Shown: one piece after another, positions 1 to 62,934 of the stretch
Position numbering within the stretch: the stretch's first letter is position 1
Layout: each line of letters begins with the position of its first letter
Origin: Mobula hypostoma
Lineage: Eukaryota
DNA: 64,000 bases
Reading direction: 5' to 3'
NCBI RefSeq assembly: GCF_963921235.1
Contig: NC_086097.1
Span: 46,750,001-46,814,000, forward strand
Notes under the pieces: generated by a model
Databases searched by the model: none
What the model was told of the DNA's origin: nothing
Seen by the model: only the letters and a program-made list of their open reading frames with translations
Translations under genes and position numbers: made by a program

Positions 1-1321
1 AGGTCTCAAAGCTCTCCGCTTCTTTTTGGATTCCAGACCTAATCAGTTCCCCCCTACCACCACTCTGCTCCGTCTAGCGGAATTAAATTAGTCCTTACTC
101 TTAATAATTTCCCCTTTGGCTCCTCCCACTTCGTCCAAACTAAAGGTGTAGCTATGGGCACCCGTATGGGTCCTAGCTATGCCTGCCGTTTTGTTGGGTT
201 TGTGGAACAATCTATGTTCCGTGCCTATTCTGGTATCTGTCCCCCACTTTTCCTTCGCTGTATCGACGACTGCATTGGTGCTGCTTCCTGCACACATGCT
301 GAGCTCGTTGACTTTATTAACTTTGCTTCCAACTTTCACCCTGCCCTCAAGTTTACCTGGTCCATTTCCGACACCTCCCTCCCCTTGCTAGATCTTTCTG
401 TCTCCATCTCTGGAGACAGCTTATCCACTGATGTCTACTATAAGCCTACTGACTCTCACAGCTATCTGGACTATTCCTCTTCTCACCCTGTCTCTTGCAA
501 AAATGCCATCCTCTTCTCGCAATTCCTCCGTCTCCGCCGCATCTGCTCTCAGGATGAGGCTTTTCATTCCAGGACGAGGGAGATGTCCTTTTTTAAGGAA
601 AGGGGCTTCCCTTCCTCCACCATCAACTCTGCTCTCAAATGCATCTCCTCCATTTCACGCACATCTGCTCTCACTCCATCATCCCGCCACCCCATTAGGA
701 ATAGGGTTCCCCTGGTCCTCAACTACCACCCCACCAGCCACCGGGTCCAACATATTATTCTCCGTAACTTCCGCCACCTCCAACGGCATCCCACCACTAA
801 GCACATCTTTCCCTCCCCCCATCTCTGCTTTCCACAAGGATCGCTCCCTACGCGACTCGCTTGTCCATTCGTCCCCCCCATCCCTCCCCACTGATCTCCC
901 TCCTGGCACTTATCCTTGTAGGTGGAACAAGTGCTACACTTGCCCTTACACTTCCTCCCTTACCACCATTCAGGTCCCCAGACAGTCCTTCCAGGTGAGG
1001 CGACACTTCACCTATGAGTCGGCTAGGGTGATATACTGTGTCCGGTGCTCCCGATGTGGCCTTCTATATATTGGCGAGACCCGACGCAGACAGGGAGACC
1101 GCTTTGCTAAACACCTACGCTCTGTCCACCAGAGAAAGCAGGATCTCCCAGTGGCCACACATTTTAATTCCACATCCCATTCCCATTCTGACATGTCTAT
1201 CCACGGCCTCCTCTACTGTAAAGATGAAGTCACACTCAGGTTGGAGGAACAACACCTTATATTCCATCTGGGTAGCCTCCAACCTGATGGCATGAACATT
1301 GACTTCTCTAACTTCCGCTAA
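1..1321 (+). mobile_element. Penelope-like retroelement, 3' part of ORF (RT C-terminus plus GIY-YIG endonuclease), frameshifted
   Basis: RT motifs GTRMGPSYA, LRCIDD (YIDD-like), LDL, YYKPTDSHSYL in ORF 154-894; C-x2-C/CYTC linker and VIYCVRCSRCGLLYIGET GIY-YIG in ORF 431-1321. Confidence 0.92.
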
Positions 1322-1752
1322 TGCCCCACCTCCCCCTCGTACCCCATCTGTTATTTATTTTTATACACACATTCTTTCTCTCACTCTCCTTTTTCTCTCT
1401 CTGTCCCTCTGACTATACCCCTTGCCCATCCTCTGCGTCCCCCCCCCCACCTCCTTGTCTTTCTTCCCGGACCTCCTGTCCCATGATCCTCTCATATCCC
1501 TTTTGCCTATCACCTGTCCAGCTCTTGGCTCCATCCCTCCCCCTCCTGTCTTCTCCTATCATTTTGGATCTCCCCCTCCCCCTCCCACTTTCAAATCTCT
1601 TACTAACTCTTCCTTCAGTTAGTCCTGACAAAGGGTCTCGGCCTGAAACGTCGACTGCACCTCTTCCTAGAGATGCTGCCTGGCCTGCTGCGTTCACCAG
1701 CAACTTTGATGTGTGTTGCTTGAATTTCTAGCATCTGCAGAATTCCTGTTGT
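1322..1752 (+). repeat. PLE 3' terminal repeat (pseudo-LTR) with hammerhead motif
   Basis: Follows the stop codon; pyrimidine-rich; near-identical copies at 30210-30640 (-), 30893-31289 (+), related at 54985-55380. Confidence 0.85.
1621..1656 (+). ncRNA. Minimal type I hammerhead ribozyme motif, core mutated (CUGACAA)
   Basis: AGTC-CTGACAA-AGGGTCTCGGCCT-GAAA-C-GTC-GACT; helix I AGTC/GACT. Confidence 0.7.
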
Positions 1753-1899
1753 AAGCAAAGCAATGGGCTAACTAGGTAAATAGTAGACTTGAACAAATTA
1801 AACAATCACGTCCTCAAACCCGACCTCCACTAATAGCAGATAAAATTCACGAAGGGAGTGTATGTATGATCAGAGAGAAAAAAAAGTTACATTAAATGA

Positions 1900-3405
1900 A
1901 AATATTGAATAAAAGATCTCCAGTTCTGTTCAAATTTAACTGAAGTATCATAAAGATTACTTCTGATTTTTTTCCAAATTTAGACATAGTATCATTTGAG
2001 AGAACCAAAAAAATGTAGTTGGGGCATTAACCTCCTTCCAATGTTGTAGAATACATCTTTTCGCCATTACAGTGAGAAATGCAATCTTTCTACTCGCTGA
2101 GGGGGATAAATTTCTAGAAGTTTTAGGTAATCCAAAGATAGCAGTAATAGGATGGGGAGAAATATCACTATTCAAAACCTTTGAGATAATATTAAAAATG
2201 TCTTTCCAAAAAGTTTCCAGATTAGGACAAGACCAAAGCATGTGGATCAAGGAAGCTATCTCCCCATCATATCTATCACAAAGAGGGTTAATATGAGAGT
2301 AAAACGAGCTAATTTATCTTTAGACATGTGTGCTCTATGGACAACTTTAAATTGAATTAAGGAGTGTTTGGAACAGATAGAGGAAGTATTAACTAGTTGT
2401 AAAATATTAGCCCAGCCATCCGCCAGGATAGAAAGGCCCAATTCCTTTTCCCAGTCAGTCCTAGTCTTATCGAATGGAGCTTTCCTAAGTTTCATGATAG
2501 TATTATAAATAATAGCCGTTACACCTATCTGACATGGGTTGAGGTTAATGATAGCATCTAAAATATTTGTAGGGGGTAACGTCGGAAAGGAAGAAAATAT
2601 GGTATTTAGGAAATTTCTAACTTGCAAATATCTAAAAAAATGTGTGCTTGGTAAATTTATTTGTTAGATAACTGTTCAAAAGACATAAGGGAGCCATCTG
2701 ATAGTAAGTCCAAAAACTGTGATATACCATTAGTCTTCCAAATTTGAAAGGCACGGTCCATAGAGGAGGGGAGAAACAATATATTGACAATAATAGGAAT
2801 TGCTAGCACAAATTGATTAAGATTGAAAAATTTTCGGAATTGAAACCAGATGCGTAAGGTATGTTTAACTATCGGGTTGCAAACCTGCCATATAACGTTT
2901 CAAATCGGAAGGAAGAGAAGATCCTAATATAGAGCCAAGCGCATAGCATTGAACAGAATGTAATTCCAATACTACCCATTTAGGAATGGATAGTATATCT
3001 TGGTCAAGTAACCAAAATTTCATGTGTCGAATACTAATTGCCCAATAATAAAATCTAAAGTTAGATAATGCCAAGCCTCCATCTCTGTTAGCTTTCTGTA
3101 GATGTATTCTACCCAATCTCGGGTTTTTATTTTGCCAAATAAATTAAGAGAGTTTGGAGTCTACTTTATCAAAAAAGGATTTTGGAACAAAAATCGGTAA
3201 TGTCTGAAATATATATAAAAATTTTGGTAGAATAAACATCTTAACAGCATTAATACGACCAGTCAAAGTTAAATAAAGTGGAGACCATTTAAAGGAAAGT
3301 TGTGTAATGTGGTCAATTAAGGGTAAGTAATTAGTCTTAAATAAATCCTTATGTTTACAGGTAATTTTAATCCCAAGATATGAAAAATGATTATTAACCA
3401 ATCAA
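1900..3405 (-). mobile_element. L1-clade LINE ORF2 3' fragment, degenerate
   Basis: FSYLGI, GRINAVKMFILPKFLY, GGLALSNFRFYYWA, QFKVVHRAH, HMLWSCP across ORFs 1957-3401. Confidence 0.88.
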
Positions 3406-3574
3406 AACGGCAGGTTCTGATACAAAGATAGAAGTTATTCAAGGGGCATTTCAAAATGCTTTTTTCTAGCCAGTCCAGTTGACTTCTTGCATGGAGGATG
3501 GAGCAAACCATCAGTATGTCACTAAGAGTTATGATTAGTAGACTTAACAGCTAGAAAATGGACTATTGATATAG

Positions 3575-3776
3575 AGACAACACACACAAAATGCTAGAGG
3601 AACTCAGCAGGCCAGGCAGCATCTATTGAAAGGAATAACAGTGAGTCCTGCTGATGGGTCTTGGCCATAAACATCAACTGTTTATTCCTTTCCACGGATG
3701 CTGTCTGGCCTGCTGAGCTCCTCCAGCATTTTGTGTGTGTTGCCTTGGATTTCCAGCATCTGCAGATTTTCTCGTG
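3575..3776. mobile_element. Fold-back element made of PLE terminal sequence, with TSD
   Basis: Inverted arms ~3578-3642 and ~3677-3742 around a degenerate hammerhead; TSD TATTGATATAG at 3564-3574 and 3777-3787. Confidence 0.85.
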
Positions 3777-4017
3777 TATTGATATAGTGGCATAGTCTTA
3801 ACTCACACTGGCACTTTGGGATTCGAAGTTCATGTACTGAACTGTGTAGCTACTTATGGTAACCATGAAATTAATGGGTTGTTAAAGAAACCAACGTACA
3901 TCCCTAATGACCTTATTGAAGGAAATCTGCCATTTGAACCTAATATGGCCTATGTATGATTCCAGATTCACCTATGTGTTTGTTTCTTAATTGGCTTCTT
4001 AGTTAAGGAGAACATGG

Positions 4018-7000
4018 TTAATCATCAAATGCCTGATACCCCACTGGTGTTTAGAGTAGCAATGAAGGTCTTCCGTCTATGTCTGTCCTTAGCCGTCATC
4101 TCTGTTGTGCTCCAGGTGTAATTAAGGGTCCTCATTTCTGCCTTTGTGACACAGTGTCAAGTTGTCCTTGGCCCTTCATGGGTCAAATGAAGTTCTGTCT
4201 TGATGATGGAGTTGGTCTGTCTTCTCATCACATGCCCAATCCATCTCCAATGTTTCCTCATGAAGATTGTGGCTATGTCCTCTTAATGACACTGAAGAAG
4301 TAGGGTGTCGTTGGAGATCTTTCTTGGCCAAAAATACAGAGGATCTTCCAGAGGTTCATGGTGTGGAATGACGACAGCTTAGCGAGGTCACTCTCTATCA
4401 TGCACCAGCATTCTGACCTGTATAAAAATGTGGACGAAACACAGCTCTGGTTCAGCTTCAACTTGGTGTGGATGCTGTACCTGGTTGACCTCCTTATGGT
4501 GATCTGAAGATGTTTTAGTTTTGCTAAGTCTGCACTGAATATCATCCTTGGTCCCACCATCCTGCCGAATGATGCTGCCCAGGTAGGTGAATCTGCTGGT
4601 GCTGGGTAAGTTGACGCCATATGCCTTGATGTGAGGAGGAGACCCTATATTGAGGGTCATGTTCTCTGTTTCTCTCTAGCTGACTCTGAATCCAACCTGT
4701 CCGCCAAAGGTGCACAGGTGCTGAGTTTTCTCTTGCATGTGCTGGTGTGTATGTGACAGTAATGTGTGGTTATCCACAAAGTCACGGTCTTCTGAACTAG
4801 AGAATAGAGTCTGTCTAATGACTCTCTCTGCTTTTCTTTTGTTGTTTGCCTCGTAACCCAATCAATCACCAGGTTAAGTAATATTGCCGACATGACACTG
4901 CCTGGGCTGATCCTGTCTTGAGTTCAACTCTCAAATTGCAGTCCCCAACTGTGCAAGTGAAGTTAGTAAAGAAACTCTGGATAAGCTGGACAATTTTGGA
5001 AGGGATCCCATATGATCGAAGAATTCACCAGAGCTCTCCCTGTGGATACTAACAAAAGCCTTTTCAAAGTCCACAAAATGTACATACAGTTGTCTCTGCC
5101 ACTCTGTTTACCGTCTTGTGATGCTATGTGATGTTTTGTGATGTTACGTGCATGAATATCTGGTCAACACAGCCTCTGTTCCTCAAGCACATATCGACAG
5201 CATCTATAATCCATTGAATAATGTCTTTGGCTTGAATCCTGCTGGGCACTGACAGAAGTGTGAAGCCACACCAGTTGTTGCAATCACTTAGCGCTCCTTT
5301 CATGGCGATCTTAACAATAACTCCCTTTGTCCGGTTCTTGGCTACTTGTCCCCGTTCCCAGATTATAGGAAACAGTGGTTGCAGGATGGCTGCTGCAACT
5401 TCTGGTTCAGCTGTGAGCAGTTCAGTGTTCAAGTTGTCATGTCCTGAAGATCGGCTGTTCTGTAATGAATTAATCGCAGCAACAATCTCCTTTCTTGGGT
5501 GGATCTGTGTTGATGTTGAGGTCCTCTGCTGCCTCTTGTAAGTCAGGTTCTTCATCTGGTGGTGGTCTATTCAGTAATTCTCTGAAATATTCTGTCCATC
5601 ATGCTTCTTGATCTTTCTCAGTTGTCAAAAGCAAACTGTTCTTATCTCTCACGGGACCACTGGATCTGGCCTGGAACTTTCCATATAACAATTTTGAAAT
5701 CTGGTATATGTTTACCTGATTACCTCAAGTGGCTGCTGCTTCAGCCTCCTCTGCAAAGTCTTTCTTGTAGACTCTCTTGTCCTTTCCTACAAATCTCTTC
5801 ATTTTCTTGTTAGCTTCAGTGTATGCTAGTTGAAGTTTCTCCTTAATTCGGGTTGACTCTGCATCTAACAACTTCTTCTTAAATTTTTGTCTTTCTTCTA
5901 AGTCTGTACATGTTTCCTGCTGTATCCATTCTTTGTTCTTCTTTCCTGCTCTGTACCTAGACAAGCCTTGCTGCTCTCCTTAAAGAGTGAGGTAGTCTGT
6001 TTCCATATTGTATTGATCCTGTCTGTTGCCACGTCCTTGTCAAGGTCTTGCAAGGCCTGGAGTCTGTTCTTGTGCTGAATGGTGAAAGCAGATTTCACAC
6101 TGGTGTCCTTGAGCTTCTCAACATCTTGTTTGGTCAGGGCATGGAGGGATACGAGGAGAAGGCAGGAGACTGGGACTGAGAGGAAAATTGCATCAGCCAC
6201 GATGAAATGGCGGAGCAGAATCGATGGGCCAAATGACATAATTTTGCTCCAATATATTATGGTCTTATAAAACGTCTTTGTACATGTTCTCTGGCCCCAG
6301 TGCTTCTCAGCTTGAGTTTCATCACTGCTCCAACAGGGTGATGATCACTTCCTCTATCTGCTCCTCTCTTCACCTTTACATCCTGAAAGATCGTCTCCAT
6401 GTAATGTTGATCATTAAATGGTCACATCCATTCGAAGAGCACCATGTCAGTTTGTGGATTTCATGGCGTGGAAAGAGGGTCCCTCCTATGACCAGATTGT
6501 TCATGGCACAGAATTCCACCAGTCATTAACCACTGTTATTCATCGTTCCACATCCATGAGTGCCCATGGCCCCAGTGGAGTGTGAGTTGTTATTTCCCAC
6601 TTTGGTGTTTAGATCTCCCGTGATGATGATTACGTCTCTACCTCTGATTACAGCTGTTTGTAGAAAACATCTGTTTCTTCAATGTCACCGTTGTTAGACA
6701 TTGCACTGGATCACAGTCATGTTCACTTGCTTCCCTTCCAGCCTGACTCTCATCAGCCCACTCACTGTTGATTGGTTTCCACTCCCCCAAGCACTTCTTA
6801 TTGCCTTTCTTCATAACAACAGCTACACCATCATGATGCTGACCATCAGCCCTTCCTGAGTATAAAGCTGTTTCACCAGTTGCTGCCTTTAGTCTGCCAG
6901 ACCCTGTCCATCTGCTTTCCCTGACACCCTGTATACGTAGGTTGTGACAACACATCTCTGCAGATATTTGTGCTAGCTTGCCAGTGTTGTACGTAGTTCG

Positions 7001-7399: not shown

Positions 7400-7747
7400 A
7401 GAACATGGGGGTGGACAATATGTGCTACTTGGCAATCCCAGTTATGTCCGTATCCTATGGTAGTATGTAATAAGTCTAAGGAAAAGTTCTACTCATTTTA
7501 CAGTATTGAAGAGTTTTTGTAATTAATAGGAACTGAAAAATGTGACCATGATCTGAATGTAAAAGAGCATGTTTTGAAATCTTTTTTCAATTGAATTTTT
7601 TTTCAATTGAATTGACTTTATTTCTTACATCCTTCACATACAAGAGGAGTTAAAATCTTTATGTTACATCTCTGTCTGAATGTGCAATGTGCAAATGATT
7701 GCATAGTTTTATAAAGCATTGTAATCAATATGCAGTCACTGGTAAAA

Positions 7748-7941
7748 ATCCAATCAGAAACAAGAGAAGATCTGCAGTTGCTGGAAATCCAAGCAACACA
7801 CACAAAATGCTGGAGGAACTCGGCAGGCCAAGCAGCTTGTATGGAAAAGAGTACAGTCGACGCTTTGGCCAGAAACATTAACTGCTTACTCTTTTCCACA
7901 GATGCTGCCTGGCCTGCTGAGTTCCTCCAGCAAGTTGTATG
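7748..7941. mobile_element. Fold-back element made of PLE terminal sequence, with TSD
   Basis: Inverted arms meeting at CAGTCGACGCTTTGGCCAGAAACATTAACTG; TSD AGTCACTGGTAAAA at 7734-7747 and 7942-7955. Confidence 0.85.
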
Positions 7942-8139
7942 AGTCACTGGTAAAATTTACTTCTAAAATACAGTTGGTCATCATGTTCATTCAGAAGTGT
8001 ATAAGTTACTGCATTCATTATGATTATTAGTCAGAACAGTGGCTGAGCAACAGAGAACCATAAAAACTTGTCTTCATGTGTTAGCATAAGTAATTTATTT
8101 TAATTACTAAATCTATTAACTGTGTCTTTTATTTCCCAG

Positions 8140-8690: not shown

Positions 8691-8812
8691 GAGGGTCTCA
8701 GCCCAAAATTTCAACTGTACTCTTTCCCATAGATGCTGCCTAGCCTGCTGAATTCCTGCAGCATTTTGTGTGTTGCTTGGATTTCCAGCATCTGCAGATT
8801 TTCTCTTGTTTG
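8691..8812 (+). repeat. PLE terminal-repeat fragment
   Basis: gggtctcagcccaaaatttcaactg...gatgctgcctagcctgctg...ccagcatctgcag. Confidence 0.7.
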
Positions 8813-20662: not shown

Positions 20663-20889
20663 CCCAAATTCTGGCCAATATTTTCTCAGATTTTCTTCTA
20701 GATTTCCACAATGTGACAATGTCACTAAAATAACAAGTAATTGCATGAATAATTCTAGTGTGTATAACTCTGTCAGCCCAAATTCTGACCAATATTTTCT
20801 CAAGGGTTTCTTCTAGATTTCCACCATGTGACAATGTCACTAAGATAGCAAGTAATTGCATGAATAATTCTCGTGTGTATAACTCTGTC
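20663..20889. repeat. Direct tandem duplication, ~113-bp unit x2
   Basis: cccaaattctg...gtgtgtataactctgtc at 20663-20774 and 20777-20889. Confidence 0.9.
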
Positions 20890-29745: not shown

Positions 29746-30308
29746 GGGCAGACATTATTGCAGGGGAACAAGAGGCAATTGAAATTGCAAGTGTGCAGGA
29801 AGAAACAACAGAAGTTGGTTTATTAAAATTATAAGAGGTGGAGACAGAAGAGAAGGAAAAATGGAGGAGAAAAGGGGCAAAGGAAGGACCAGACGGGGAG
29901 GCAAGAGTCGCGATGGCCCCATCCTGTATTAGACAGATACTATTGAAGTTATATCATGGGGCGATGCACCAGGGAAGGCAAAGCATGATCACAACCCTCT
30001 GGCAGGACTGGTGGTGGCCAGGGATGGGCAGGGATGTTGAGAAGTTCTGCCGCCGTTGTATCATTTGTGCCCAGCATAACCCTGGTAAGGGCAGAAAGCT
30101 ACAGCTTGCAAATCAGCCACGGCCGAGGGGACCCTGGGAAAACATCCAGATAGACTTCACAGGGCCCCTGCCAAAAAGCAGGGGGAAAAGCTACTGCCCA
30201 GTAATTATGCAAACAACAGGAATTCTGCAGATGCTGGAAATTCAAGCAACACACATAAAAGTTGCTGGTGAACGCAGCAGGCCAGGCAGCATCTCTAGGA
30301 AGAGGTGC

Positions 30309-30344
30309 AGTCGACGTTTCAGGCCGAGGCCCTTCATCAGGACT
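30309..30344 (-). ncRNA. Minimal type I hammerhead ribozyme motif, intact core
   Basis: Minus strand AGTC-CTGATGA-AGGGCCTCGGCCT-GAAA-C-GTC-GACT. Confidence 0.8.
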
Positions 30345-31193
30345 AACTGAAGGAAGAGTGAGTAAGGGATTTGCAAGTTGGAAGGGGAGGGGGAGATCCA
30401 AAATGATAGGAGACGACAGGAGGAGGAGGGATGGAGCCAAGAGCTGGACAGGTGATTGGCAAAAGGGATACGAGAGGATCATGGGACAGGAGGTCCGGGA
30501 AGAAAAACGGGGGGGGGACCCAGAGGATGGGCAAGGGGTATATTCAGAGGGACAAAGGGAGAAAAGGGAGAGTGAGAGAAAGAATGTGTGTATAAAAATA
30601 AGTAACAGATGGGGTACGAGGGGGAGGTGGGGCATTAGCGGAAGTTAGAGAAGTCGATGTTCACGCCATCAGGTTGGAGGCTACCCAGACGGAATATAAG
30701 GTGTTGTTCCTCCGACCTGACCAAGACTTCTCTAACTTCCGCTAACATTGACTTCTCTAACTTCCGCCAACATCGACTTCTCTAACTTCGCCAAGATGAA
30801 GCCACACTCAGGTTGGAGGAACAACACCTTATATTCCCTCTGGGTAGCCTCCAACCTGATGGCATGAACATCGACTTCTCTAACTTCCGCTAATGCCCCA
30901 CCTCCCCCTCGTACCCCATCTGTTACTTATTTTTATACACACATTCTTTCTCTCACTCTCCTTTTTCTCCCTCTGTCCCTCTGACTATACCCCTTGCCCA
31001 TCCTCTGGGCTTTTCCCCCCCTCCCCCTTTTCCTTCTCCCTGGGCCTCCTGTCCCATGATCCTCTCATATCCCTTTTGCCAATCACCTGTCCAGCTCTTG
31101 GCTCTATCCCTCCCCCTCCTGTCTTCTCCTATCATTTTGGATCTCCCCCTCCCCCTCCCACTTTCAAATCTCTTACTAGCTCTTCCTTCAGTT

Positions 31194-31229
31194 AGTCCTG
31201 ACGAAGGGTCTCGGTCTGAAACGTCGACT
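31194..31229 (+). ncRNA. Minimal type I hammerhead ribozyme motif, intact core
   Basis: AGTC-CTGACGA-AGGGTCTCGGTCT-GAAA-C-GTC-GACT. Confidence 0.78.
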
Positions 31230-32904
31230 GCACCTCTTCCTAGAGATGCTGCCTGGCCTGCTGCGTTCACCAACAACTTTTATGTGTATTGCCCAGTAAT
31301 TATGGATCACTTCACCCGGTGGGTGGAGGCTTTCCCAACAAGGGACTGCACCACCCGCACCGCTGCATGGCTCCTAGTTCAGGAAATCCTCTCAAGGTGG
31401 GGAACCCCAGTTCAGGTGGATTCAGATCAGGGAGCACATTTCACAGGGAAAGTGATGAAGGAAATGTGCCGACTGCCAGAGATTCGACAGCGGTTCCACA
31501 TACCCTACCACCCCCAGAGTTCAGGGATGGTAGAAAGGATGAACCGAACAATCAAGAATGCATTAACCAAAGCTATAGCTGAGACAGGAAAGACATGGAA
31601 TGATGTATTACCAGGAATCCTAATGAGATTGCGCGCAACCCCAAACTACACGCTGGGTCTCAGCCCCTACGAACTGTTGATGGAGCGAGCAATGCAACTC
31701 CCCTGTGGGGTAATTACGGGTTGCTGGGAGCCTGGGGCTTACAGGGATAGAATGACACAATATGTGAAAGACCTTAAAGTGTTGAAGGACCAAGCAAAAT
31801 AACAGCAGCGAATCGCTGATCAGAAAGAGCCAGAGGGAAAGGGGATAGTCCTTCCACAGTCCGGTGACCAAGTTATGGGGAGGGTGCTGCCAGAAAGGCC
31901 AGGGTTTGCCCGCAGGTGGATAGGACCATAGATGGTACTCTTAACCAATGATACGTATATCTATGTACAGACTCGGCGAGGCAGCCAGTGGAAACACTGG
32001 ACTCAGGTTAAAGCATACAACTCACCTTCTTGTTGCTCCTACAGACAGAATGGGGAACCAAGTGTACCCAGTAACCGTGTAATTACAGAGAACCTAAGAG
32101 AGGAACACCAGCTGACCATGGCAGACCTGACCACAGCTGATGAAAACATACTCGGAGAAAACGCCAAGGCAGAAAACGCTGAGAGCGTGGCAGAAGACAC
32201 TGAGAGCATGTTGGAAATCCATGAACATTCTGCTAAGGTGTGATGATGATGGTACTCGGTAAGGAAGGCTGGTTGCTAAAGGTAGATAATTAGTTTAATA
32301 GCATAGAATAGAAAAATATTGGAAAATAGATGGGGAGGGATTTTTAAGTTAAAGCAGAGGCAGCAAGTTCCACAATTTCAATGGCATTTCAGACTGCACT
32401 CGGCATCTGAAAGCAATCACACCCAGTCTGAGGAGCTGGGCCCTTTTCAGCAGTTGGGCCAGTGATTGACCGGACAGTTAGGAAGGGGGTGCCACCGGGG
32501 AGAGGTCCCTACAGGCATTTACGTAGAGGCCACCCCAACCCCTTCCGGTACATCGATGAGAGGGCCTGTGGGTGCTCCTGCAAAGAGAGTTTCAGCAACC
32601 AGAGAACAAAGAGCTGAAGACAAAGGAAAGTGATGAAGCTGCAATCAGACTGCAGGGAAAGATCCGACAGGCACACGAAAGAAGCCGCATTTCTAAAGAC
32701 TTGTTCAAATTTCTGGAACAGCCTCTCTGCTTAATATTTGGTAGGTAGCAATTAGGGATGGATACGGTAGATATCGAGGCACACAAAAATTGGGGGGATA
32801 ATTCTGAGGCAGGGCGTTTTTGCTGCCCTATTTGAGTAGATCCTCCTAGTTTGGCCTTTCCTGGTACAAATTTATTTTTGTCCAGGAGGGCCAAGAGGAA
32901 GGAC

Positions 32905-52325: not shown

Positions 52326-53619
52326 TACAAATGTCTTACGGTCTTATGGTATGGAGGTTCAGTGCACAGAATTGAAAGAGGCTGCAGAGGGTTGTAGAAC
52401 TCAGCCATGGGCACAACCTTCCCCACCATCAAGGATATCTCGAAGCAGTGATGCCTCAAGAAGGCAGCGTCCATTATTAAGAACCCTCACCATCCAGGAC
52501 ATGCTCACTTCTTGTTACTACCATTAGGGAAGAGGTGCAATGATTTGGGAATGTTCCTCACTCTCAGATTTCTGAATGATCCATGAACACCGCCTTATTA
52601 CTCCCTTTTTCTGAAAATGTATTTATTTTTGTGACTTCTAGATTTTTATGTCGTTGCCACATTTCACTCGTATACGTTGGTGATAGTAAATCTGATTCTG
52701 ATTTCTTAAAATACAAGAAGATATGTCTGGAAATATTCAGCAGGTCAGACTACATCTGAGGGGAGAGAGACTAGCTTACTGTTTCAGGTCAAAGATTTTC
52801 TGTCAGATCCTGAACTGCTAACTCTGTTTCTCTTCCCACAGGTTTGGTCTGACCTGTTGGGTATTGCTAGTGTTTTCTGTTTTTACTTTAGTTACATAAA
52901 TATAGTATTCTGTTAAATAAGGTTCCACACTATTCTAATAAATTATACTAGCATTGAATTACAATATTGATTTGCAAAGGAAGACAGATCCCTTCGTACA
53001 TCCACATAGACACGTTTGTTTATTTTGATTCAGCTTATTAATTAAGGCACACAGAGAGGCCATCTAATCCACGGGGTCTTTGCTGATCCAAAACAAAACA
53101 ATCCCATCAACTCTCCTTTCCTTCCCATTTCTCTTTACCCCCACATTACTTCATGTATCCTCATCAAACCATATTTAGTCACTTAGTAGGGGAATATTCT
53201 CCAATTAACCTGCCAGCACATTGGAGGCACAAGGGTCTGCAGATGTAGGAAGCTGGAGCAAGAGACGATCTGCTGGAATAACTCAGGGGTCAAGCAGCAT
53301 CCGTGGGAGGAAAGGAATTGTCATGATGTGGGATTTTGACCTGAAACATCAACAGCTGTTTTCCTCCCATAGATGCCGCTTGACCTGCTGAGGGATTGCT
53401 TGTTGTACCCCCAGCACATCTTTGGGAGGGTATCAGATCATCTGGCAGAAACTCACCTGGTGACAGTAAGCACATACAAATCCCACACAGACAGTGGCCA
53501 TTGTCTAGATCAAACCTTGGATCTGTGATGCTGCAGCAGGAAATGTTGTGTTTCTCTGCCACCTGATTATCTTTGCGAGGAAGGCATCAATCAGAAAGCA
53601 GGTTATGGCATTGCATAGG

Positions 53620-61180: not shown

Positions 61181-62185
61181 GGAAATTCAGTACCAATGCC
61201 CACCATTCCTGAAGCAGATTGACTTTAAAAAAGGGAATCTGCTCATGCGAAATTGGAACTGTGTTTCATCACCATTTTTGAGTGAGCCTTTTGAAACAGC
61301 ATCAGTGAGACTAATACCACCATTTTAGCTTTTGGAGGCTGATGACTTCAGGCTTCCCAGTATTTAATTTAGGAACATTAGATGCTATGCTGGAGGAAGG
61401 ATGGAGGAGTGGGGTGGGAAAGAAGTTGTTACAGGTGAAAGTCTCACTAAGATTGTACGGATAAGAACAAAATACAGTTCTGCAGTGGAGGAGGATGATG
61501 TAGAAACATTGGAGGGGTTGTTTTCATTAGCTATGTAATGAGCACTTAGGATGCTATTTATGGCAATGATCAGAGCCACTTTGGTATTGTGTTACAAATG
61601 GGCACAAACTTGGGAGTGTACAACATATACAAGGTCTTTTGACAGGAGGCTATAAACGGATTGGAGATATTCCACTTGTAACAGTATTACATTATACTTT
61701 CATTGACTTAGTAAGAAATAAAGATATATTTTCTAAACTGCCTGTAATTAAGAATATTATTTCTAATAATTGGTTCTGAGTGTGTTCTCAATTAAAGAAG
61801 AAACACTTCATGCTTTGCTAATTACCAATTATGATGAACGATTTGATGGCAAATGGTTTACTTTTAAATATGAAGACCAATATATATGCTAACAATATTT
61901 ACTGAAAGCAACAAAAAAATCTGCAAATGCTGGAAATCAGAACTAGAAACAGGTATTTATCCCAATGTGCAGGTCAGGCAACATCTGTGGCACATAGTTA
62001 ACATTTTACATTCTGTTGACACTTTTTCCTTTTTACCAGTGCTGCCTCACCTGCTGATTGATTCCGGCATTTTCTGTTGATTGAAAGCAAATCTCAAATT
62101 TTTTTGAAAACTTCGACCAATTGTAATTGACTAGAAGTTTTTGTGTATTTTAATGGAATTATAACAGTAATTTCCTTTTGCCTAG

Positions 62186-62831
62186 AAATGGACATCAAAG
62201 AACTTATTGAAAAAAGGCAGTATTTTAAGGCCGACTGCCACCTCATCAAATTGGAACATAAACAATATACTAATGATACAACAGAGGCTGATGAAGAACT
62301 CGTCAAAGAGCAAAAGAAAGGAATAGAATCACTGTATGAGCTGCTTAGTGCTGAAATTTTCACAGTGGCAAAAAACTCAATGAGCATTTCCAAGGAAAAC
62401 CCAGATCTGTTGAAGATGGCAGTAAGAGTGATCATGCAAGAAGAAAAAGCGGATCAAATATATCTAGAGGAAAAGGAGAAATCTGGAGCTATTGCAGAAG
62501 TTAGGCCAAGAAGATGGGAAACTAAATGGTTGAGTATTATAGAGCAATCTGTCAATGAAAGATTAGGTGAGCTACCCAGTATTCCTGATGCTGCAGAAAC
62601 CAAATGGCTTTTTGAGCATTTAGTGCAGCATCATAAAAAACTGAAAGAGGATTTTGACACCATTGTGAACTGCATCAAACCATGTTATCCTCAAGAGTAC
62701 AACATATGCGAAAAGTATGTGGAATATTATCATAAAAAAAGTTCATCCCTCATGGAATTAATCATAGAAAGTGAACCAAAAGGAAAAAATGTTTATCCTT
62801 TTTTGCACTGGATTTACTCCTGTTATCCAAA
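62186..62831 (+). CDS. TNFAIP2: TNFAIP2 (M-Sec, Sec6 family) large coding exon
   Basis: Acceptor ccttttgcctAG, donor GTAAGT; ESLYELL, RPRRW, LKEDF..IKPCYPQEY...YH, WIYSCYP match recalled TNFAIP2 motifs; in frame with 58650. Confidence 0.88.
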
Positions 62832-62934
62832 GTAAGTTGGATACATATCCAACATATGTTTAATTTATTTACTGTATTATTGTCAAGTATTATATTCTAA
62901 GATCAAGATTTTCTTACCTGCTTACCTTATTGTA

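What the first reader, a model, noticed from the sequence alone, without database searches (positions are those of the whole stretch)
3564..3787. ~200-bp fold-back element with its own TSD and a hammerhead remnant in the loop
Seen: inverted arms of PLE terminal sequence enclose a degenerate hammerhead, and the unit is flanked by the 11-bp repeat TATTGATATAG. It has no coding sequence, and only one arm carries the final ~35-nt tail. Inference: it inserted as one unit, either as an extreme truncation/inversion product of PLE integration or as a non-autonomous, retrozyme-like hairpin family mobilised by PLE protein.
Basis: partly seen in the sequence, partly recalled or inferred. Interest (0 to 1): 0.72.

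Follow-up and report, generated by a model that had tools for sequence, protein, structure and literature searches.

The report
Dead Penelope retroelement fold-back insertion
This 202-base hairpin is a real, old, single insertion left by a very abundant Penelope-like jumping gene, laid down in the already described 'inverted copy plus one-sided tail' pattern with a broken ribozyme motif, so it is a tidy example of a known kind and probably not a new mobile element.

Summary
Observation confirmed. Arms 3575-3638/3682-3745 are 89% complementary. A 31-nt tail lies on one side only. The exact 11-bp duplication TATTGATATAG scores above all 400 random controls. The hammerhead remnant (3644-3680) has lost core A6 and G12. 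The same end follows an RT + GIY-YIG frame at 5-1753, so the source is a Neptune-type Penelope-like element (PLE). Inverted copy, one-sided tail and duplication are the published PLE insertion layout. Of 9 PLE-end loci in the window, 4 are fold-backs. They have 4 different junctions and lengths of 189-1080 bp, and the 3 aligned come from 3 subfamilies with matched arms. That favours independent integration by-products (0.85). It fails the retrozyme tests: no tandem units, no intact core. One lead is open: contigs from three related organisms repeat a different, shorter junction in several variants, so a small multi-copy fold-back family may exist; this copy does not carry that junction. The scan has noted this pattern before, in this genome and others. 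Interest 0.2.

The parts
3564..3574 (+). Left target-site duplication, TATTGATATAG
   Evidence: exact match to 3777-3787, above 400 of 400 random controls
3575..3643 (-). Arm 1: inverted, tail-less copy of the PLE 3' end, from about 38 to about 105 nt before the tail end
   Evidence: aligned to plain window copies at 1.6 kb and 16 kb
3639..3647 (.). Inversion junction. CAGT at the inner end of arm 1 meets the 5' strand of hammerhead helix I; 4-5 nt inverted match between the two halves of helix I
   Evidence: exact base of the switch is ambiguous by about 4 nt
3644..3680 (+). Decayed minimal type I hammerhead: core A6 reads C (3651), G12 reads T (3668), C11.1 reads A (3667), helix III palindrome broken (3673); predicted cut would follow 3675
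   Evidence: most laid depth reads A at 3651 (32513 of 37616 in X5); core numbering and invariance from PMC4209133, PMC6155905 and recall
3682..3745 (+). Arm 2: sense copy of the PLE 3' end
3746..3776 (+). 31-nt PLE 'tail', present on this side only
   Evidence: 30-40 bp one-sided tail described in PMC8557442, PMC3846280, PMC11167929
3777..3787 (+). Right target-site duplication
5..1753 (+). Related, longer PLE remnant: broken RT C-terminal part, C-x4-C-x2-C linker, GIY-YIG, 3' region, hammerhead motif, tail. Shows what the fold-back derives from (another subfamily)
7748..7941 (-). Second fold-back, 194 bp, 14-bp exact duplication (7734-7747, 7942-7955), junction at the GGCC palindrome of helix II
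30210..31289 (-). Third fold-back, 1080 bp, arms about 500 bp and 95% alike, 15-bp exact duplication, descriptor-intact hammerhead in each arm, 2.8 x 25-nt filler at the junction
53222..53410 (-). Fourth, much decayed fold-back, 189 bp, candidate 9-bp duplication; here the hammerhead remnant (53320-53347) belongs to the tail-less arm
   Evidence: weaker: duplication found with a wider search range than the control, remnant above shuffles with 3 of 4 references

Best explanation
A dead-on-arrival, one-step insertion made by the protein of a Neptune-type Penelope-like element. Shown: the layout (duplication, inverted tail-less arm, sense arm, tail, duplication), the PLE origin of the sequence, and a junction at a short inverted match. 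Inferred: the GIY-YIG endonuclease cut the two target strands 11 bp apart. Reverse transcription was primed on each strand from the two start sites that bracket the tail, one at the tail end and one about 38 nt inside. The two cDNAs stopped early, after about 138 and about 67 nt, and were joined through the 4-5 nt inverted match between the two halves of hammerhead helix I. Repair left the 11-bp duplication. The hairpin is a by-product and has decayed neutrally since. It carries no frame and no intact ribozyme, and nothing shows that it ever moved again.
For: One exact duplication around both arms. Both arms carry the same subfamily letters, and of their 7 differences 3 fall in arm 1 and 4 in arm 2 against the family majority. 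4 of 9 PLE-end loci in the window are fold-backs, with 4 different junctions and lengths 202, 194, 1080 and 189 bp; the 3 aligned belong to 3 subfamilies, each with matched arms. Tail-less arms begin 36-43 nt before the tail end in 3 of 4 fold-backs, and one plain copy ends at -35. This matches the two RT start sites and the two-strand cleavage and extension seen in vitro for an anole PLE (PMC11167929). In the 30-kb fold-back each arm holds sequence the other lacks (tail; 14 extra 5' bases), and the 53-kb one appears to as well, which needs two primings. Inverted pLTR + tail + 8-10 bp duplication + junction palindromes are described in PMC3846280 and PMC8557442. In four related organisms 98,305-133,112 records were laid, nearly all depth on the arms, with 1,163 joint rows, and 0 of 32 listed pieces cross the focal junction.
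Against: The genome is not held, so the breakpoint census rests on 4 fold-backs. One search shows only 15 of 1,163 joints, and contigs break inside the arms: even the orthologous copy is not spanned. No empty site was listed. 7 of 12 shown filler rows share one other short junction, so multi-copy fold-backs seem to exist. The focal copy alone fits copy-back as well as twin priming. In organism G the left-flank piece stops exactly at 3574 with 24 letters that do not fit, which I could not resolve.
Confidence: 0.85

Rival explanations
1. This copy belongs to a non-autonomous hairpin family: one master fold-back was transcribed and re-inserted many times by PLE protein, so copies share the junction and differ in duplication.
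For: It ends in the PLE tail region that holds the RT start sites (PMC11167929). Non-autonomous PLE parasites exist (MRC1, passage in PMC8557442). A different short junction recurs in several variants in three related organisms (tables 5 and 5c).
Against: 0 of 3 other fold-backs in the window share the junction. 0 of 32 listed contig pieces span it, while diverged plain copies span 3644-3777 in long contigs. The commonest continuation after arm 1 (loose ends at 3638) is the ordinary antisense PLE.
Confidence: 0.08
2. Same one-step insertion, but by self-priming (copy-back): a single cDNA folds at the mirror image of helix I and copies itself, and the endonuclease trims the copy at the tail boundary.
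For: In the focal copy arm 1 lies wholly within the span of the sense arm. Self-priming at junction palindromes is proposed in PMC3846280. The 7.8-kb junction is centred on a palindrome.
Against: It cannot make the 30-kb copy, nor probably the 53-kb copy, where each arm has sequence that the other lacks. It needs an extra step to explain the fixed outer end. This is a variant of the best explanation; its share is counted inside the 0.85.
Confidence: 0.3
3. Two separate events: a plain copy inserted first and the inverted arm arrived later (second insertion or local inversion), the 11-bp repeat belonging to one event or to chance.
For: PLE ends are dense here (9 loci in 64 kb). The unresolved left junction in organism G (record 17).
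Against: The duplication abuts both outer ends and beats 400 of 400 controls; same subfamily and balanced decay in both arms; the same layout recurs with its own duplication at 3 more loci; organisms B and C show 25-27 letters of arm 1 joined to the left flank.
Confidence: 0.04
4. A monomer of a non-LTR retrozyme that spreads through self-cleaved circular RNA.
For: Size near 200 bp, type I hammerhead ancestry, and retrozymes derive from PLE pLTRs (bioRxiv 10.64898/2026.07.22.740005).
Against: No tandem array at the locus. Core broken at A6 and G12, not found by the descriptor that finds 3 other motifs in the window. The ends follow the PLE tail, not the ribozyme cut site.
Confidence: 0.03

Closest known systems
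Complex insertions of endonuclease-positive Penelope-like elements: adjacent inverted 5'-truncated copy, one-sided 30-40 bp tail, 8-10 bp duplication (Arkhipova et al. 2013, PMC3846280, passages; Craig et al. 2021, PMC8557442, passages)
   Same: Head-to-head inverted copy lacking the tail, tail on one end, one duplication round the unit, short inverted match at the junction.
   Different: Truncated down to the last 138 nt, with no ORF between the arms; duplications here 9-15 bp; another host lineage.
Poseidon of Anolis carolinensis, internal RT initiation (Frangieh et al. 2024, PMC11167929, parts 1-2 of 4 read)
   Same: Two end points bracketing a 30-40 nt tail; AT-rich target; hammerhead in the pLTR; cleavage and extension of both strands would give such a two-armed product.
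   Different: Poseidon clade, not Neptune-type; the parts I read do not treat inverted-junction formation.
[quoted passage not shown]
   Same: Same layout: extra base before helix II, G10.1-C11.1, palindromic two-base helix III in intact window copies; that paper also notes motifs on opposite strands 100-700 bp apart and mostly single motifs from truncated PLEs.
   Different: The focal motif is mutated in the core and partly sequestered by arm 1.
Animal non-LTR retrozymes (Cervera and De la Pena 2020, PMC7229834, passages; bioRxiv 10.64898/2026.07.22.740005, parts 1-2 of 5 and passages)
   Same: Short, non-coding, hammerhead-bearing, PLE-related.
   Different: Retrozymes are head-to-tail arrays with a complete hammerhead in each unit; this is a single head-to-head unit with a dead core and a PLE tail.

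Membership tests
Endonuclease-positive PLE insertion | Terminal sequence belongs to an element with RT and C-terminal GIY-YIG endonuclease | tested here: met
   Focal 3639-3778 is 75% identical to 1616-1753, which follows frames with RT motifs. Atlas feature hits: GIY-YIG at 0.96, HTH_animal/RVT_1 at 0.96-0.98. Pfam hmmscan gave 0 families for these two frames at 1e-3.
Endonuclease-positive PLE insertion | Adjacent inverted 5'-truncated copy and 30-40 bp tail on one end | tested here: met
   tail 31 nt
Endonuclease-positive PLE insertion | Target-site duplication of variable length round the whole unit | tested here: met
   11 bp here; 14, 15 and a candidate 9 bp at the other fold-backs
Endonuclease-positive PLE insertion | Minimal hammerhead in the pLTR | tested here: met
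   3 descriptor-intact motifs in related window copies; remnant in the focal copy
Neptune (or Nematis) clade | CX2-5CxxC motif upstream of GIY-YIG | tested here: met
   C-x4-C-x2-C read in frame 392-1321; definition from PMC8557442
Neptune (or Nematis) clade | RT phylogeny places it in Neptune | not tested
   No tree built and no reference set at hand; 'Neptune-type' rests on the linker motif and on Neptune and Poseidon being the vertebrate clades
Non-LTR retrozyme | Head-to-tail tandem of two or more units | tested here: not met
   None of 19 tandem rows overlaps 3564-3787
Non-LTR retrozyme | Complete type I hammerhead in the unit | tested here: not met
   A6, G12, C11.1 changed; missed by the descriptor
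Non-LTR retrozyme | Expression as linear and circular monomer RNA | not testable with these tools
   Only contig-level runs were offered
Non-autonomous fold-back family | Many copies share the inversion junction but have different duplications | tested here: inconclusive
   0 of 3 other window fold-backs share it; 0 of 32 listed pieces span it; but 1,148 joint rows hidden and genome not held
MITE / DNA fold-back transposon (features recalled) | Symmetric terminal inverted repeats and fixed duplication length | tested here: not met
   31-nt one-sided tail; duplications of 9-15 bp

The most novel reading that the evidence does not exclude
Some of these integration by-products became masters. In relatives, a fold-back of about 130 bp without any hammerhead (arm 1 to about 3637 joined through a few extra bases to 3711) recurs in several diverged variants per organism, which would be a palindromic non-autonomous family mobilised by Neptune protein. 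In addition, helix I of the hammerhead may be a joining hotspot, or even mark in-vivo cleavage: the inner end of arm 1 maps within 0-2 nt of the predicted cut site, and the 53-kb copy seems to use the same two points with the arms swapped. If so, the huge copy number gives a genomic read-out of PLE twin priming and of whether the ribozyme cuts the template.
Probability: 0.2. Interest if true: 0.55.

Novelty: new member of a known kind. Interest (0 to 1): 0.2.

Why it matters
As it stands it is one more decayed PLE insertion and matters little. Its value is as a data point. How PLEs form inverted junctions, and whether their hammerhead cuts in vivo, are open questions (PMC11167929 found cleavage dispensable in vitro; PMC8557442 calls for mechanistic work). 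A lineage with on the order of 100,000 contig records matching this end offers thousands of natural junctions for testing twin priming against copy-back, and for testing whether any short fold-back became a self-propagating family.

Tried and rejected
Own-genome search: no genome held. Exact-pattern scans for the PLE end found 0 loci in viral contigs, metagenome contigs and prokaryote genomes, so no outside copies could be read. Rfam: 0 at gathering score; 4 weak rows at E up to 10, best MIR946 at 28.5 bits against a cut-off of 190, rejected as a generic hairpin match. Pfam found no family on 12 of 14 frames, including the PLE frames. Sequencing-run search: no RNA holder listed. Organism D had no cover of the flanks. 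No empty-site joint among the 15 of 1,163 joints shown. The recurrent short junction has 0 matches in the window at up to 3 mismatches. Folding of isolated hammerhead segments was uninformative: one intact copy scored z 1.14, like the focal remnant at 1.12. The 'opposite strands' joints 3578-3589 to 3744-3747 were set aside as plain tailed copies laid on arm 1. Earlier-findings look-ups by sequence and one by words returned nothing. Five paper searches listed no paper on a short PLE-derived fold-back family in cartilaginous fishes; Repbase and Dfam could not be searched, so this is no proof that none is described.

Full report
Observation. The sequence is as described. An inverted pair at 3575-3638 and 3682-3745 is 89% complementary over 64 nt, with 7 mismatches, 6 of them transitions. 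The unit folds at -119.5 kcal/mol, z -12.65, better than 200 of 200 shuffles. TATTGATATAG stands at 3564-3574 and 3777-3787, abuts both ends, and occurs nowhere else in the window. A search with the same slack at 400 random point pairs never scored above 8, against 11 here. The sense arm runs on into 31 extra bases, 3746-3776, that arm 1 lacks. The hammerhead remnant is 3644-3680, 28 of 37 identical to an intact window copy and above all 300 shuffles for 4 of 4 references. Core A6 (3651) and G12 (3668), the C11.1 partner (3667) and the helix III palindrome (3673) are changed. A strict descriptor finds 3 motifs in the window but not this one. G12 is the general base (PMC6155905, passages), so I infer the remnant is dead. 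Its 3' helix-I strand pairs with the inner end of arm 1, so it lies only partly in the loop.

Source. The same end occurs at 9 loci in the window. At 5-1753 it follows broken frames with RT motifs, a C-x4-C-x2-C linker and a GIY-YIG motif. The Atlas feature search returns GIY-YIG clusters at 0.96 and HTH_animal/RVT_1 clusters at 0.96-0.98; Pfam itself gave nothing on these frames. The linker marks Neptune/Nematis (PMC8557442, passages); I built no tree. The host looks like a vertebrate (Sec6-family exon at 62131-62835). Earlier notes of the scan call it a ray; I did not test that.

Shared or unique breakpoints. Four of the 9 loci are fold-backs: the focal one (202 bp), 7748-7941 (194 bp, 14-bp duplication), 30210-31289 (1080 bp, 15-bp duplication) and 53222-53410 (189 bp, candidate 9-bp duplication, found with wider slack than the control). 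All four junctions differ: helix I with the motif on the tailed arm; the GGCC palindrome of helix II; about 530 nt upstream with a 2.8 x 25-nt filler; and helix I with the motif on the tail-less arm (above shuffles for 3 of 4 references). The three aligned belong to three subfamilies, and within each the two arms carry the same diagnostic letters. The outer ends are what is shared: tail-less arms start 36-43 nt before the tail end in 3 of 4 (the 53-kb arm aligns only to about -64), and plain copies end at the tail (3 of 5), at -35 (1 of 5) or near -20 to -25 (1 of 5). The 30-kb unit lies in an LTR-type integrase region (rve), and the same six codons are read on both sides of it, as a target duplication predicts for a one-step insertion of this layout.

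Relatives. No genome is held and four collection scans found nothing. I laid contigs of 4 of the 24 listed runs, one each from organisms B, C, D and G, on 3280-4060 at 80% likeness. 98,305-133,112 records were laid per run, with nearly all depth on the arms. The right junction is bridged by the tool's 31-letter rule in C (3741-4055) and G (3715-4043), and with 27 letters in B. The left junction shows 27 letters of arm 1 in B and 25 in C, short of the rule. In G the left piece ends at 3574 with 24 unfitted letters, which is unresolved. D does not cover the flanks. The right-side piece differs at 26 of 315 letters in C, so the insertion is older than that split, in line with 11% divergence between the arms. 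No empty site is among the 15 of 1,163 joints shown. None of 32 listed pieces crosses the focal junction, although diverged plain copies span 3644-3777; but the orthologous copy is not spanned either, so this test is weak.

Against the simple reading. Seven of the 12 filler rows shown (677 hidden) join arm 1 near 3626-3637 to 3711 or just beyond, through closely similar letters such as GTTAAAAAGTACTAA, GCAAAAGAGTAATAA and AGAGTACTGA: 4 variants in G, 2 in B, 1 in D. The joint 3626 to 3711 stands in 2, 2, 2 and 8 contigs, and 3631 to 3711 in 2, 1, 1 and 4. Four variants in one run need at least two loci. Identical extra bases are unlikely to arise repeatedly, so I infer one origin and later copying of a hammerhead-less fold-back of about 130 bp. 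Whether PLE protein moved it or it rode inside another repeat cannot be told without flanks. It is absent from the window and is not the focal junction.

Mechanism. Shown: layout, origin, junction at a 4-5 nt inverted match. From the literature: an anole PLE protein cuts and extends both target strands, prefers AT-rich DNA, starts RT at two sites that bracket the tail, and does not need ribozyme cleavage (PMC11167929, parts 1-2 of 4). Inferred: two cDNAs primed at those sites, about 138 and 67 nt long, were joined through the halves of helix I. Copy-back from one cDNA (PMC3846280, passages) fits the focal copy equally well but not the 30-kb copy, whose tail-less arm has 14 extra 5' bases (13 of 14 matching the plain copy). 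I put twin priming at about 0.55 and copy-back at about 0.3 within the 0.85. The inner end of arm 1 also lies within 0-2 nt of the predicted cut after 3675. Helix-I annealing and run-off at a cleaved 5' end predict the same place. The six top loose-end places per run show no peak there (1,413 rows hidden), which is weakly against cleavage.

Comparison and novelty. Inverted copy, one-sided 30-40 bp tail and short duplication are the described PLE layout. Minimal hammerheads in pLTRs, including pairs on opposite strands, are described in PMC4209133 (parts 1-2 of 4). Retrozymes are tandem arrays with complete motifs (PMC7229834, passages; bioRxiv 10.64898/2026.07.22.740005, parts 1-2 of 5 and passages); both tests fail here. 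That preprint's supplementary tables on one cartilaginous fish, which I could not see, may list related units. Five searches listed no paper on a short fold-back family in this group; repeat databases were not available. Earlier notes of the scan reached the same reading on other loci; they are not counted as evidence.

Verdict. Real feature, known kind. Best explanation 0.85, family membership of this copy 0.08. Interest 0.2. The novel case (a self-propagating short fold-back family in the lineage, or a ribozyme-defined joining point) has probability 0.2 and would merit 0.55.

Noticed in passing
tables 5 and 5c; joints from 3626-3637 to 3711-3745: A hammerhead-less fold-back junction of about 130 bp total recurs in several variants in organisms B, D and G; candidate multi-copy family. 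Not in the window.
   Followed up: partly
table 5; joint 3777 back to 3579: Tail end followed by the start of an inverted arm in 8, 3, 2 and 12 contigs of the four runs, letters between unknown; could be tandem fold-back units or neighbouring tail-to-tail copies.
   Followed up: no
window 30210-31289: Young 1.08-kb fold-back (arms 95% alike) with a descriptor-intact hammerhead in each arm, inserted in an LTR-type integrase region; junction filler is 2.8 copies of 25 nt from the end of the endonuclease frame.
   Followed up: partly
window 53222-53410: Decayed fold-back that seems to use the same two helix-I points as the focal copy with the arms swapped.
   Followed up: partly
window 8693-8812: Plain 120-bp 5'-truncated copy with tail and a degenerate duplication of about 11-14 bp (2 mismatches; within the range of chance controls).
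   Followed up: partly
window 62131-62835 (+): Long frame matching Pfam Sec6 (E 2.6e-29): exon of an exocyst component 3-like gene.
   Followed up: no
window 20663-20889: Two tandem copies of a 115-bp unit, 92% alike.
   Followed up: no
window 2256-3480 and about 4040-5600: Flanks translate in part like decayed LINE reverse-transcriptase pieces on the minus strand (family assignment recalled, no Pfam hit).
   Followed up: no
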